From IMG/VR virus record IMGVR_UViG_3300028833_000057, positions 1 to 64,000 of that record: 64,000 nucleotides of DNA; one strand, 5' to 3'. The translations under genes and the position numbers were made by a program. Position 1 is the stretch's first letter, and each line of letters starts with the position of its first letter. Origin of the DNA: a virus. Taxonomy: Duplodnaviria; Caudoviricetes. Below, in pieces: positions 1 to 7,321 of this stretch. Below the pieces are notes generated by a model, which saw only the letters and a program-made list of their open reading frames with translations, searched no databases and was not told the DNA's origin.

Positions 1-78
1 CATTTCTTCTGGTGTAATATCTGATAGAATTTCTTTCAGAAGCATTTCATTCTGTGCAGAGAGTTCTGTATCTTTCAT
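1..78 (-). CDS. 5' part of a hypothetical protein (MKDTELSAQNEMLLKEILSDITPEEM...), runs off the window
   Basis: ATG at 78, open frame to the window edge, AAGG upstream. Confidence 0.6.
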   Translation of the reverse strand, partial: MKDTELSAQNEMLLKEILSDITPEEM

Positions 79-117
79 AATAAACCTTTAAGTTTTGTAT
101 TTCAATAAAGAAGTTGA

Positions 118-180
118 AAAAAAAAACAACCCCACAGCAATGACGCCGTGGAGCTATAGCGGTGACGTATCATGCCGCTA
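118..180 (-). terminator. Two tandem hairpins followed by a U-tract
   Basis: Minus strand tagcgg..ccgcta, then ccacggc..gctgtgg, then a long T run. Confidence 0.6.
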
Positions 181-279: not shown

Positions 280-357
280 TTAACAGTGACGAGCTAAAAT
301 TTCAATTTCAGTTTCGTCATATTTCGATAAAAATTCAAAAATGTATTCTTTAAACAT
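280..357 (-). CDS. 25-aa acidic microprotein MFKEYIFEFLSKYDETEIEILARHC
   Basis: AGGA RBS 8 nt before the ATG; TATATTAA motif at 404-411 and 5' hairpin upstream; below the ORF-track cutoff. Confidence 0.5.
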   Translation of the reverse strand: MFKEYIFEFLSKYDETEIEILARHC

Positions 358-403
358 TTTTAATTTCCTATAGTTAGCCTATACATCATCATATAGACAT
401 ATT

Positions 404-411
404 TTAATATA
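404..411 (-). promoter_or_regulatory. Putative early phage promoter TATATTAA
   Basis: Exact motif recurring at 9 intergenic sites, oriented toward the downstream gene. Confidence 0.55.
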
Positions 412-424
412 AAGAGCCAATTGT

Positions 425-458
425 AAAAAATACGGTCAAAGCAAGCGCTTTGACCGTA
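425..458 (-). terminator. Intrinsic terminator
   Basis: tacggtcaaagc-aagc-gctttgaccgta, U-tract on the minus strand only. Confidence 0.8.
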
Positions 459-571
459 ATGATCTAAGAGGACACACAAGGAAAGTTCTAGCTTCAGGAA
501 AACGAACACAAACCATCAGCTAGCTCTTAGATTAATTCGACGTCCCGTCACGTCTTAATTTCAAAAATTTC
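425..571 (-). ncRNA. Putative ~145-nt structured small RNA (late promoter to terminator)
   Basis: AACTATAAATTG promoter at 571-582; nested stems atctaagag/ctcttagat and ctagct/agctag; 12-bp terminator at 431-458 plus T6; no RBS-supported ORF. Confidence 0.55.
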
Positions 572-582
572 AATTTATAGTT
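571..582 (-). promoter_or_regulatory. Putative late promoter AACW-N6-TG
   Basis: AACTATAAATTG matches the AAC-N5-ATTG motif seen before structural genes. Confidence 0.55.
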
Positions 583-602: not shown

Positions 603-1058
603 TCAAATAATAGATTTTATACATGCAGGGTATGGATAAAAATTCACTTCTTTTGCTATGTTATCCATAACTTCCTTAGAAAAATAACGTTCATCAATAT
701 AGATTATACTTATTTCCTTTTCTAATAGCCTATCAATAATTTCATCTGGAAAGTCACAAGCATAACTTTCTTCATAATGAAGCATCGTATACCTACTGTC
801 AAGTTTTATTCTATTACCAAAAAACATTGCCAATACTTTAATTTTATCTTCATTTATAAGAATACGCTTGGTGTCTTTTGATGAAACAATCAATGGAAAC
901 TTATAGCTATTGGTAAGCATACCGGATATAAATTCTGTAACAACTTTAGTGTCTTTTATATTTACTTTGCTATAATCTATATCCTTTATAATCTCTTTTA
1001 TCGGCTTAGTTTCTAACTCAATTTCAATTTCATCAAATGGATTGCTGCCGGAGTCCAT
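603..1058 (-). CDS. Hypothetical protein
   Basis: 151-aa ORF, GAGG RBS, overlaps the upstream gene end. Confidence 0.75.
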   Translation of the reverse strand: MDSGSNPFDEIEIELETKPIKEIIKDIDYSKVNIKDTKVVTEFISGMLTNSYKFPLIVSSKDTKRILINEDKIKVLAMFFGNRIKLDSRYTMLHYEESYACDFPDEIIDRLLEKEISIIYIDERYFSKEVMDNIAKEVNFYPYPACIKSII

Positions 1059-5678: not shown

Positions 5679-7058
5679 TTAGTCTAACAACGTTTGAAGT
5701 CCTAGTGCATAATCTTTATCAAGACTTAAATTACTATTAAACTTTCCATCATTTAAACTAAATGCAAGATTAATAGGACTGAACTTCTTTAGGTCATCAT
5801 CATATTCATCGAATAGTGTTAAGAAGATATTCAAAACGTCTCCATCGTAATCTCCAGTAAGGAACTTTAAGACATTATTTCGAATACTCATAGTATAATC
5901 AGTAATATCAGTTTTGATCTTAGTAATACGCATATATAGAATTGAACCAATAGAAATGGTTGGGTTTCTATTCAGTAAGAATGGATGACCATTTGGTCCA
6001 AGTAAGCGCATCATATAATCATAGATATCCTGATCAAATACCGTAATTGCATTGTTGAAGATTGTCATTGCTTCGAAATAACTAATGTCTTTCTTACGGG
6101 TAAGATAACTTAGGATCTGCAGTTTAAATAATTCTAAGCATACAATATACGGCAAATGTACTTCATCTAAAGCCGTATCTACAGGTAGTGGTGTAATTAC
6201 ACATCTTGATGAGAAATTTAAACGGCTACCTAATACTGTATTTCTAATTAGACCTTTCTTACCATTTAGTGCTAATATAACAAAGTTATCGATGTCAACA
6301 ATCAACTGCTGAATCTTATTACAATATGCTGCTACAGCTAACTCATTTCTATCCTTAGAGAGAGCATGAAGACCTGCAGTTAGCTTTAGGATCTGTACAT
6401 ACTTTTCATTCAGCGGATCAGTAATAACCTTATCCTTAATTACCACGACTGGTCTAAGTCTAGGACTGTACATAGGTATTTTTGTCATAAAGAGCTTATC
6501 ACGATTAGCTCTAATTATTTCATATACATCTTTTTTCTCATCTTTATTCTTTGTGTGATATGTCTCTAAAATAGAGTCGAAGTTATTAATAAACCCTTCA
6601 ACACCCATACCTACACATTCTGGCATAGGATCTTTAGCAGTAGGCTTTAACTCTGTCTCATTCGGGATGACTACATTCCCGTCTACATCGATGGACATGT
6701 TTGTGTTAATATAGCTATTCAGTCTTGAAGTACCAATGTATTGCTGAATAAACTGATAGAATCTCGGATGAATTACTTTATATTCCTTGAGATCTATCCA
6801 ACCTACTCTAGAGATAACTGATTGTTTCTTCTCTACTATGGTCTTACAGGATTCACACTCTAAGCCTTCATAAATCCTGCCTCTAAGATTACCACATTTA
6901 CAAGAATATTCAATTTCATCTCCATGAATTTTACCAAATACTTTTTCAGAATATAATCCATCATCTGTAAATGCTCTGGATTTATCCATTATTTCTGCAT
7001 TGGTAATTACTCTAGATGAATCAAATATATCATCCATATTTATGAAACTTAATTTCAT
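5679..7058 (-). CDS. rpoC: Phage multisubunit RNA polymerase beta'-like subunit, N-terminal/catalytic part (probably non-virion RNAP)
   Basis: GLYSEKVFG, Zn ribbon CKCG..CESC, GKKGLIR, G.RLNFSSR.VI, LLNRNPTI, catalytic GDYDGD; true start MKLSF at 7058 with AAAGGA RBS. Confidence 0.92.
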   Translation of the reverse strand: MKLSFINMDDIFDSSRVITNAEIMDKSRAFTDDGLYSEKVFGKIHGDEIEYSCKCGNLRGRIYEGLECESCKTIVEKKQSVISRVGWIDLKEYKVIHPRFYQFIQQYIGTSRLNSYINTNMSIDVDGNVVIPNETELKPTAKDPMPECVGMGVEGFINNFDSILETYHTKNKDEKKDVYEIIRANRDKLFMTKIPMYSPRLRPVVVIKDKVITDPLNEKYVQILKLTAGLHALSKDRNELAVAAYCNKIQQLIVDIDNFVILALNGKKGLIRNTVLGSRLNFSSRCVITPLPVDTALDEVHLPYIVCLELFKLQILSYLTRKKDISYFEAMTIFNNAITVFDQDIYDYMMRLLGPNGHPFLLNRNPTISIGSILYMRITKIKTDITDYTMSIRNNVLKFLTGDYDGDVLNIFLTLFDEYDDDLKKFSPINLAFSLNDGKFNSNLSLDKDYALGLQTLLD

Positions 7059-7120
7059 AGATATTTTTCCTTTATGGTGTATCTTAATGTTAAAAAGCTT
7101 ATTCTTGCTTTCAACATATT

Positions 7121-7128
7121 TTAATATA
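7121..7128 (-). promoter_or_regulatory. Putative early promoter TATATTAA with 5' hairpin (7087-7117)
   Basis: Exact motif upstream of the beta' gene. Confidence 0.55.
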
Positions 7129-7321
7129 AATTTAAATATTTTTCTTAAAAATTTCAATATAATTATATATAATTTTTTATTAATTTTAAAATAATTTTTA
7201 TTATTTTTTTTATGAATATTATTTAATATTATTATACAAAACTGCAAGAATTTGAGCTTGGGCTCAAAATGGTATATTTTATACCTAGAACACATAAATG
7301 ACCATCCACAAAGGAACAATT

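What the first reader, a model, noticed from the sequence alone, without database searches (positions are those of the whole stretch)
425..582. Late-promoter small RNA displaying two anti-RBS-like single-stranded segments
Seen: the minus-strand late motif AACTATAAATTG leads to ~145 nt ending in a strand-specific terminator. It folds as a 5' hairpin (gacgt/acgtc), then stem AUCUAAGAG/CUCUUAGAU enclosing stem CUAGCU/AGCUAG. This leaves UGGUUUGUGUUCGUUUUCCUG as a loop and CUUUCCUUGUGUGUC as a bulge. Their complements (CAGGAAAACGAACACAAACC, GACACACAAGGAAAG) look like A/C-rich leaders with an AGGA Shine-Dalgarno, resembling the kinase leader CACAAAGGAAC at ~7307. Inference: a phage trans-acting sRNA that silences early or host mRNAs at the RBS late in infection.
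Basis: partly seen in the sequence, partly recalled or inferred. Interest (0 to 1): 0.75.

Follow-up and report, generated by a model that had tools for sequence, protein, structure and literature searches.

The report
Conserved late small RNA, jumbo phage
A 268-kb uncultured giant phage and at least three related lineages keep a roughly 147-base protein-less RNA gene with its own late-type promoter and terminator; the gene looks real, but the idea that it blocks ribosome-binding sites is only partly supported, and its best-conserved loop has no evident target.

Summary
On the minus strand, AACTATAAATTG (582-571) fits the published late-promoter consensus of Bacillus phage AR9 (AACA-N6-T[A/G]+1). 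The same motif marks virion-protein genes in this genome. It leads to a 147-nt unit (571-425) with a 5' hairpin, a two-part stem and a strong terminator.

Four related metagenomic lineages keep the unit. It shows five compensatory base pairs and G-U pairs on this strand only. It is conserved about twice as well as third codon positions of the neighbouring gene. The 26-codon ORF is absent in relatives, so this is a real non-coding RNA gene. It matches no Rfam family and is single-copy.

The anti-RBS reading is only partly supported:
- The invariant apical loop (UUUGUGUUCGUUUU) pairs with phage start regions no better than shuffled sequence.
- Its 'AGGA' complement comes from stem-closing bases that one lineage lacks.
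- The CU-rich bulge is mildly anti-Shine-Dalgarno in two of the three variants tested.
- A sibling late unit elsewhere in the genome has an 18-nt perfect match to a ribosome-binding site, so the mechanism is plausible for the class.

No transcript could be checked. The scan has noted similar late small RNAs in other AR9-like phages. Verdict: a new member of a known kind, of moderate interest.

The parts
571..582 (-). Late-type promoter AACT-N6-TG; predicted transcription start at G571
   Evidence: It matches the AR9 late consensus AACA-(6N)-T[A/G]+1 (PMC5312081). The motif AAC[AT]N3[AT]ATTG is concentrated upstream of genes. Four of ten genes tested that carry it hit virion structural protein families. 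It is conserved as AACTAAAAATTG in relatives.
425..571 (-). Predicted 147-nt non-coding RNA
   Evidence: Fold z -3.95. A covariance model finds one copy in the genome and copies in L003, L004, L006, L086 and L089. 62% of columns are invariant, against 31% at third codon positions of the neighbouring gene. No Rfam match.
539..554 (-). 5' hairpin GACGU-loop-ACGUC; stem and loop almost invariant
   Evidence: helix 1: 5 pairs that never vary. The loop is predicted unpaired.
524..532 (-). Outer stem, 5' strand (AUCUAAGAG)
   Evidence: Helix 2 is 95% paired and nearly invariant in sequence.
462..470 (-). Outer stem, 3' strand (CUCUUAGAU); with the bulge it forms a polypyrimidine tract
   Evidence: Invariant in all lineages.
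488..523 (-). Inner hairpin: stem CUAGCU..GG paired with CC..AGCUAG around the apical loop
   Evidence: Helix 3 has 3 pairs with compensatory changes, plus G-U pairs on this strand only.
499..512 (-). Invariant apical loop core UUUGUGUUCGUUUU
   Evidence: Identical in all six sequences. Predicted unpaired at 0.9 or more in relatives. Not anti-RBS. No phage complement.
471..487 (-). 3' bulge, CU-rich (AACUUUCCUUGUGUGUC); relatives have CUUCUCC or CUUCUCU and lack the 8 nt CUUGUGUG
   Evidence: Weak complementarity to start regions.
425..458 (-). Intrinsic terminator: 12-bp stem, 4-nt loop, U6
   Evidence: Two compensatory pairs in helix 5.
436..516 (-). 26-codon ORF, not a gene
   Evidence: The ATG reads ATA or GTA in relatives. 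No sense-strand ORF of 10 codons or more exists in any relative.
398..411 (-). Early-type promoter TATATTAA-N6-G of the next unit. It marks the 3' boundary of the RNA gene and is not part of it.
   Evidence: TATATTAA lies in 51 upstream regions against 3.3 expected. Compare the AR9 early consensus. Conserved in relatives.

Best explanation
This is an independent late transcription unit of an AR9-like jumbo phage that makes a stable, structured RNA of about 147 nt with no protein product.

Proposed sequence of events:
1. Late in infection the phage's own non-virion RNA polymerase starts at G571.
2. A hairpin forms near the 5' end, starting 17 nt from the predicted start.
3. A long two-part stem presents an invariant U/G-rich apical loop and a CU-rich bulge.
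4. An intrinsic terminator releases the RNA.

The RNA most likely acts in trans as a riboregulator. The polypyrimidine bulge, together with the adjoining 3' strand, can pair with purine-rich Shine-Dalgarno regions. It would favour the GGAG-type sites that mark this phage's early genes. The invariant loop recognises a partner not encoded in an obvious way by the phage: a host RNA or a protein.

Status of each step:
- Shown here: the gene anatomy, conservation, structure, strand and absence of coding.
- Inferred by analogy: late timing and termination.
- Inferred only: action in trans and the targets.
For: - Promoter: it fits the experimentally defined AR9 late consensus. The same motif is concentrated upstream of genes here, 20 of 23 sites being non-coding, including virion structural protein genes. 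The phage encodes a multisubunit RNA polymerase subunit.
- Termination: the terminator is strand-specific. In AR9, RNA-seq showed strong termination at predicted terminators.
- Conservation: four lineages keep the unit, with 5 compensatory pairs and 96.7% of cells paired. G-U pairs occur only on this strand.
- Selection: 62% of columns are invariant, against 31% at third codon positions of the adjacent gene.
- Non-coding: no conserved ORF.
- Single-stranded parts: the loop and bulge are unpaired at 0.9 or more in L003, L004 and L089, and somewhat less in L086.
- Anti-SD bulge: it pairs with early start regions better than shuffles do (z -2.6). The L004 version prefers early over late regions (p = 9e-4).
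- Early versus late sites: early genes use GGAG in 41% of cases, late genes in 7% (Fisher p = 5e-4).
- Same locus, different RNA: a more distant relative (L118) has a different late-promoter RNA at this locus. Its two hairpin loops read CUUCUCCU and UUUGACUCCU.
- Sibling unit: a second late unit in this genome has an 18-nt perfect complement to one ribosome-binding site and 14-nt complements to two others.
Against:
- The most conserved element, the loop, is not complementary to phage start regions beyond chance.
- Bulge pairing energies are small, with means of -7 to -9 kcal/mol. The L086 variant shows no excess over shuffles.
- Part of the CU tract is locked in the outer stem.
- The outer stem and the 5' hairpin are invariant in sequence rather than covarying. 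That pattern fits sequence-specific protein recognition as well as it fits RNA pairing.
- The host is unknown, so host targets cannot be examined.
Confidence: 0.45

Rival explanations
1. The RNA is a protein-binding or decoy RNA. The invariant 5' hairpin, outer stem and U/G-rich loop would be recognition sites for a phage or host protein, such as an RNA chaperone, a ribonuclease, a translational repressor or a defence sensor. The RNA would titrate, guide or scaffold that protein rather than pair with mRNAs.
For: - Helices 1 and 2 never vary in sequence, although the inner stem and terminator covary.
- The invariant loop has no complement in the phage genome.
- The loop is no better than shuffles against start regions.
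Against: - No candidate partner was identified.
- The adjacent, co-conserved 151-aa protein gives only weak ParB-N-like fold matches (E 0.025, TM about 0.3) and shows no RNA-binding fold.
- No repeated protein-site motif occurs elsewhere in the genome.
Confidence: 0.25
2. The element is a cis-acting module. It would serve mainly as the structured 3' end and terminator of the upstream DUF5662/151-aa operon. It might also be a late leader or insulator placed in front of the downstream early unit. The released RNA would have no function of its own.
For: - No terminator lies between the stop codon at 603 and the hairpin at 458-431, so upstream transcripts must also end there.
- The order 151-aa gene, late RNA, early promoter, micro-ORF, 121-aa gene is kept even in distant relatives whose RNA sequence is different.
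Against: - A plain terminator needs about 35 nt, not 145 nt with an invariant 14-nt loop and a conserved promoter.
- The promoter motif is conserved at a fixed distance in all lineages.
- Conservation matches that of first and second codon positions.
- The terminator is strong and is directly followed by a separate early promoter. This argues against a leader for downstream genes.
Confidence: 0.15
3. The element acts at the DNA level, for example as a protein-binding site, an origin or a packaging signal. Its palindromes would only happen to look like RNA helices.
For: - The region lies next to the ends of the assembled contig.
- The hairpins fold on both strands.
Against: - G-U pairs are tolerated at four stem positions on the minus strand. 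Their A-C equivalents would break the opposite strand or a cruciform, and no A-C cells are seen.
- The promoter and the U-run are strand-specific.
- The contig ends simply overlap by 118 nt and break at a poly-A run, which is an assembly feature.
Confidence: 0.04
4. The element encodes the 26-residue peptide of the ORF at 516-436.
For: An ATG-started 26-codon frame exists, with AAGAG nine nt upstream.
Against: - The start codon reads ATA or GTA in all relatives.
- No sense-strand ORF of 10 codons or more exists in the relatives.
- The frame runs into the terminator stem.
Confidence: 0.02

Closest known systems
Late transcription units of Bacillus phage AR9, read by its non-virion RNA polymerase (PMC5312081)
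   Same: The promoter has the form AAC(A/T)-N6-T-G(+1). The phage is a jumbo phage with multisubunit RNA polymerase genes and distant DNA and protein similarity to AR9, PBS1 and phiR1-37. Early promoters are of the TATATTA type. Units end at intrinsic terminators.
   Different: The AR9 paper's main text uses neither 'small RNA' nor 'noncoding'; it reports late antisense transcripts. The covariance model finds no homologue in AR9, phiR1-37, PALS_2 or BpSp.
ORF-less start-to-terminator units ('sRNAs') of giant Pseudomonas phages 201phi2-1 and phiKZ (PMC11512511)
   Same: These are short transcription units of jumbo phages that lack a coding sequence. Some are conserved between related phages and have a conserved secondary structure. 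Their function is unknown.
   Different: Those were found by long-read RNA sequencing, whereas this one is only predicted. No sequence relationship was tested or is expected. Most of those are 5'UTR-derived, whereas this one is intergenic with its own promoter.
Trans-acting sRNAs of Firmicutes with C/U-rich seeds that occlude Shine-Dalgarno sites (RsaE/RoxS type; from my own knowledge)
   Same: A small stand-alone RNA with a 5' hairpin, pyrimidine-rich unpaired segments and an intrinsic terminator.
   Different: The seed here is CU-rich rather than a repeated UCCC. Its complementarity to start regions is weak. The invariant loop is U/G-rich and is not anti-SD. There is no Rfam match.
Phage-encoded regulatory sRNAs reviewed in PMC12197685, such as the c4 antisense RNA of P1/P7
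   Same: A phage-made RNA proposed to mask ribosome-binding sites of phage genes.
   Different: By my recollection, c4 is processed from an operon transcript and has defined long complementary sites. No such site exists for this RNA in its own genome.

Membership tests
AR9-type late (non-virion RNA polymerase) transcription unit | Promoter consensus AACA-(6N)-T[A/G], with the last base as the start | tested here: met
   AACT-ATAAAT-TG at 582-571 deviates at one position (T for A), and many genes of this genome share that variant.
AR9-type late (non-virion RNA polymerase) transcription unit | The motif marks late (virion) genes of the same genome | tested here: met
   20 of 23 sites are non-coding and 16 lie 5-80 nt before a start. 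Four of ten genes tested that carry it hit virion structural protein PHROGs.
AR9-type late (non-virion RNA polymerase) transcription unit | The phage encodes split multisubunit RNA polymerase subunits | tested here: met
   Window 5679-7319(-) hits PHROG 2987, annotated 'RNA polymerase beta subunit', and Pfam RNA_pol_Rpb1_2.
AR9-type late (non-virion RNA polymerase) transcription unit | The transcript appears late in infection | not testable with these tools
Trans-acting base-pairing sRNA that masks ribosome-binding sites | Stand-alone unit with its own promoter and intrinsic terminator and no conserved ORF | tested here: met
Trans-acting base-pairing sRNA that masks ribosome-binding sites | Conserved unpaired seed | tested here: met
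   The 14-nt loop is invariant and the bulge is CU-rich in all lineages.
Trans-acting base-pairing sRNA that masks ribosome-binding sites | Seed complementarity to start regions beyond chance | tested here: inconclusive
   Loop: not met (z +0.9 and +1.4; no complement of 10 nt or more at any ribosome-binding site). Bulge: z -2.6 in two variants and 0.1 in a third.
Trans-acting base-pairing sRNA that masks ribosome-binding sites | Demonstrated repression of a target | not testable with these tools
   Needs an experiment.
Any Rfam family | Score at or above the gathering threshold | tested here: not met
   There were 0 matches at gathering scores over the whole window. On 100-650, only chance-level matches appeared at E up to 10.
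Small-protein gene | An ORF conserved in relatives | tested here: not met
   The start codon is lost and no ORF exists in relatives.

The most novel reading that the evidence does not exclude
This RNA would be one of a set of at least three late-promoter small RNAs in this phage. The other two lie at genome 214480-214642 and 267318-267383. Together they would shut off translation of early genes, which use GGAG-type ribosome-binding sites, while sparing late genes, which use AAGGAU-type sites. That would be an RNA-based temporal switch at the level of translation in AR9-like jumbo phages. In this reading, the invariant loop of the present RNA is aimed at a host RNA.
Probability: 0.2. Interest if true: 0.75.

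Novelty: new member of a known kind. Interest (0 to 1): 0.42.

Why it matters
Giant phages that carry their own RNA polymerases are known to time their genes through early and late promoters. Almost nothing is known about post-transcriptional control in them. A conserved, late-made, protein-less RNA whose structure is kept by compensating mutations is a concrete candidate regulator. This holds all the more because sibling units in the same genome carry long matches to ribosome-binding sites. If such RNAs do silence early or host messages, they would add a translational layer to the early-to-late switch, and they would offer compact parts for controlling gene expression. For this particular RNA the value is more modest. 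It defines a new RNA family with clear boundaries and a testable invariant loop, but in an uncultured phage whose host is unknown.

Tried and rejected
- The exact 12-mer promoter with up to 2 mismatches is not enriched. The spaced motif is the real signal.
- Searches of IMG/VR for relatives through the two neighbouring proteins found none. The same was true for two exact RNA patterns.
- The 16-17-nt loop pattern gave 78 IMG/VR loci. All were chance, since none matches the covariance model.
- L085 from the metagenome scan is a chance match.
- The covariance model found nothing in AR9, phiR1-37, PALS_2 or BpSp. It also found nothing in more distant relatives reached through the 121-aa neighbour.
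- Relatives' contigs could not be searched as whole records. Comparative target prediction was therefore limited to one 20-kb stretch. Only the guanylate-kinase leader (GAACACAUAAA) recurred there, and weakly, upstream of the ribosome-binding site. I do not count it as a target.
- I looked by eye for pairing between the RNA and the adjacent micro-ORF mRNA and found nothing consistent across lineages.
- I folded the 151-aa neighbour to look for an RNA-binding fold. It gave only weak ParB-N-like matches.
- The small-protein reading is rejected.
- tRNA, tmRNA and Rfam readings are rejected.

Full report
**Setting**

The window is the first 64 kb of a 267,826-bp virus record with 33% G+C. It has distant DNA similarity to Bacillus phages AR9 and PBS1, Yersinia phage phiR1-37 and Staphylococcus jumbo phages. 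It also encodes a multisubunit RNA polymerase piece. The two contig ends overlap by 118 nt and then diverge at a poly-A run. The minus-strand gene that starts at window position 78 therefore continues at the far end of the record.

**The observation**

The parts are:
- AACTATAAATTG at 582-571;
- a 5' hairpin at 554-539;
- an outer stem, 532-524 paired with 470-462;
- an inner stem, 523-518 paired with 493-488, closed by GG/CC;
- a U/G-rich loop with its core at 512-499;
- a 17-nt bulge on the 3' side at 487-471;
- a 12-bp terminator hairpin at 458-431, followed by six U.

The consensus scan finds the terminator on this strand only. The 146-nt stretch that was folded gives -43.7 kcal/mol, with z = -3.95 against shuffles. 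No tRNA, tmRNA or Rfam family matches.

**Is the promoter real?**

A k-mer survey of the regions upstream of 161 predicted genes showed two motif classes.
- TATATTAA lies in 51 upstream regions against 3.3 expected.
- A second class has the form AC(A/T)-N3-(A/T)ATTG(T/A)A and sits about 20-35 nt before many start codons.

For AR9 these are the published early and late consensus sequences. The early one is AAATATATATTAT-(6N)-G+1. The late one is AACA-(6N)-T[A/G]+1, read by the non-virion polymerase (PMC5312081).

The element's AACT-ATAAAT-TG fits the late form with one deviation that many genes here share. It predicts a start at G571. Genome-wide, AAC[AT]N3[AT]ATTG occurs 23 times. Twenty sites lie in the 9.5% of the genome that is non-coding, and 16 lie 5-80 nt upstream of a same-strand start. 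I tested ten genes carrying the motif, and four hit 'virion structural protein' families. The exact 12-mer allowing two mismatches is not enriched. The label 'late' rests on the AR9 analogy and on these structural genes, not on RNA data.

**Relatives**

The 151-aa gene just upstream has three homologue clusters at 64-67% identity. Their contigs (L003, L004-L006) carry the element at the same place. A metagenome pattern scan added a further lineage, L086/L089.

Conserved parts:
- the promoter (AACTAAAAATTG);
- the 5' hairpin, including most of its loop;
- the outer stem;
- the 14-nt loop core, which is invariant;
- the terminator;
- the early promoter that follows.

A covariance model aligned six sequences from four lineages. 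On that alignment:
- 96.7% of pair cells are standard pairs, against 28-42% when partners are slid by 1-3 columns.
- Five pairs show compensatory changes, three in the inner stem and two in the terminator.
- G-U pairs occur at four stem positions on this strand, and no A-C cells are seen. This identifies the window's minus strand as the RNA strand.

The alignment was fitted to the model's structure, so it leans towards that structure. MAFFT alignments made without the model show the same compensatory changes in the inner stem and the terminator.

Across four lineages 62% of the RNA's columns are invariant. The neighbouring gene has 57% overall and 31% at third codon positions. The 60 nt downstream of the RNA have 37%.

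The ATG of the 26-codon ORF reads ATA or GTA in relatives, and none of them has a sense-strand ORF of ten codons or more.

The element is single-copy in the genome. It is absent from AR9, phiR1-37, PALS_2 and BpSp.

I conclude that this is a real, selected, non-coding RNA gene.

**Context**

The upstream operon (DUF5662 gene plus the 151-aa gene) has no terminator of its own. Its transcripts must therefore also end at 458-431, and the RNA doubles as that operon's 3' end.

Directly after the terminator, an early promoter drives a conserved micro-ORF of 23-28 codons with an invariant C-terminus, DETEIEILARHC. A second terminator and a conserved 121-122-aa gene follow.

More distant relatives, reached through that gene, keep the same order, but the late-promoter RNA at this position has a different sequence. 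The RNA of L118 folds with z = -6.2 and shows CUUCUCCU and UUUGACUCCU in hairpin loops. CUUCUCC is the same heptamer as the bulge of L003 and L004.

**Testing the anti-RBS idea**

I paired the single-stranded segments against positions -25 to +3 of 58 early-class and 30 late-class genes. I compared the results with shuffled versions of each segment.
- The loop is no better than its shuffles (z +0.9 for the window version, +1.4 for L004).
- No complement of 10 nt or more to the loop lies at any phage start. The single 10-mer match is on the strand opposite to the genes around it.
- The bulge does better than its shuffles in the window and L004 versions (z -2.6) but not in L086 (z 0.1). Mean energies are only -7 to -9 kcal/mol.
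- The window-specific 8 nt of the bulge (CUUGUGUG) resemble the loop's UUUGUGUU and may be a second copy of that motif. This is an inference.

Two observations make the mechanism plausible for the class:
- Early and late genes use different Shine-Dalgarno types. GGAG occurs in 24 of 58 early leaders and 2 of 30 late leaders (Fisher p = 5e-4). A late-made CUCC-bearing RNA would therefore hit early messages preferentially.
- Two more orphan units with a late promoter and a terminator exist in this genome. The unit at genome 214480-214642 has an 18-nt perfect complement to the ribosome-binding site of gene 225750-226190, and 14-nt complements to two other sites. The unit at 267318-267383 carries ACCUCCUU.

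By contrast, the RNA studied here has no such long match.

**What it most likely is**

I put 0.45 on a trans-acting late riboregulator whose CU tract can mask purine-rich ribosome-binding sites, and whose invariant loop recognises a host RNA or another partner.

I put 0.25 on a protein-binding or decoy RNA. The reason is that the 5' hairpin and the outer stem are invariant in sequence rather than covarying, and the loop has no phage complement. The co-conserved 151-aa neighbour gave only weak ParB-N-like fold matches, so no partner is in hand.

I give 0.15 to a purely cis role as a 3' end or insulator, 0.04 to a DNA-level role and 0.02 to a peptide.

**Comparison with what is known**

Jumbo phages 201phi2-1 and phiKZ have experimentally mapped ORF-less start-to-terminator units that are called sRNAs. 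One is conserved across genera, and none has a known function (PMC11512511). The AR9 paper reports late antisense transcripts, but its main text uses neither 'small RNA' nor 'noncoding'. Phage-encoded regulatory RNAs are an established kind (papers listed).

This element is a new sequence and structure family of that kind. It was found in the six sequences (four lineages) gathered here. Earlier notes of this scan describe similar late small RNAs in other AR9-like phages and two siblings in this genome. I treated those notes as leads and re-derived the sibling units myself.

**Limits**

No RNA evidence could be obtained. I did not identify the host; earlier notes call the source rumen, which I did not verify. 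Only one 20-kb stretch of one relative was available for comparative target work. With only four lineages, the covariation evidence covers the inner stem and the terminator but not the invariant helices.

Noticed in passing
window 280-357 (minus strand); L004, L086, L087, L089, L112: A conserved micro-ORF of 23-28 codons lies behind an early promoter. Its N-terminus is variable and its C-terminus, DETEIEILARHC, is invariant. A more distant relative has ...DQTEGEILGKYC with a basic tail. No family was searched, because the ORF is too short.
   Followed up: partly
genome 214480-214642, minus strand (L100:180-343): A second orphan unit with a late promoter and a terminator (about 163 nt, fold z -8.9). 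It has an 18-nt perfect complement to the ribosome-binding site of gene 225750-226190(-). It also has 14-nt complements to the sites of the gene at 168165(+) and a gene near 92300(-), and a 12-nt complement to the guanylate-kinase leader at window 7309.
   Followed up: partly
genome 267318-267383, minus strand (L101:118-184): A third orphan late unit of about 65 nt: a 5' hairpin, ACCUCCUU and a terminator. It lies just upstream of a gene with an ACAAAGGAG leader. An earlier report of this scan already describes it.
   Followed up: partly
whole genome (upstream regions of 58 early-class and 30 late-class genes): Early-class genes favour AGGAG-type Shine-Dalgarno sequences (GGAG in 41%). Late-class genes favour AAGGAU-type sequences (GGAG in 7%). 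Fisher p = 5e-4.
   Followed up: yes
L118:439-600 and L112:1763-1998: More distant relatives keep the gene order (151-aa homologue, late-promoter RNA, early micro-ORF, 121-aa gene). The RNA at that position is unrelated in sequence. This suggests a locus where late RNAs are replaced.
   Followed up: partly
window 603-1058 (minus strand): The co-conserved 151-aa protein upstream has no Pfam or PHROG family. Its model is confident (pLDDT 78) but gives only weak fold matches to ParB N-terminal domains (E 0.025, TM about 0.3).
   Followed up: partly
window 1-118 and genome 267684-267801: The two contig ends are identical over 118 nt and then diverge at a poly-A run (A10 against A15). The record is probably circularly closed or terminally redundant, although it is classed as linear.
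   Followed up: partly
window 7110-7210 (minus strand): Upstream of the RNA polymerase subunit gene lie a late-like ATTATATTGAAATTTTT and an early TTTATATTAAAATATG in tandem. This may be the AR9-style arrangement for continuous expression. It is 77% similar to the region around the RNA's promoter.
   Followed up: no
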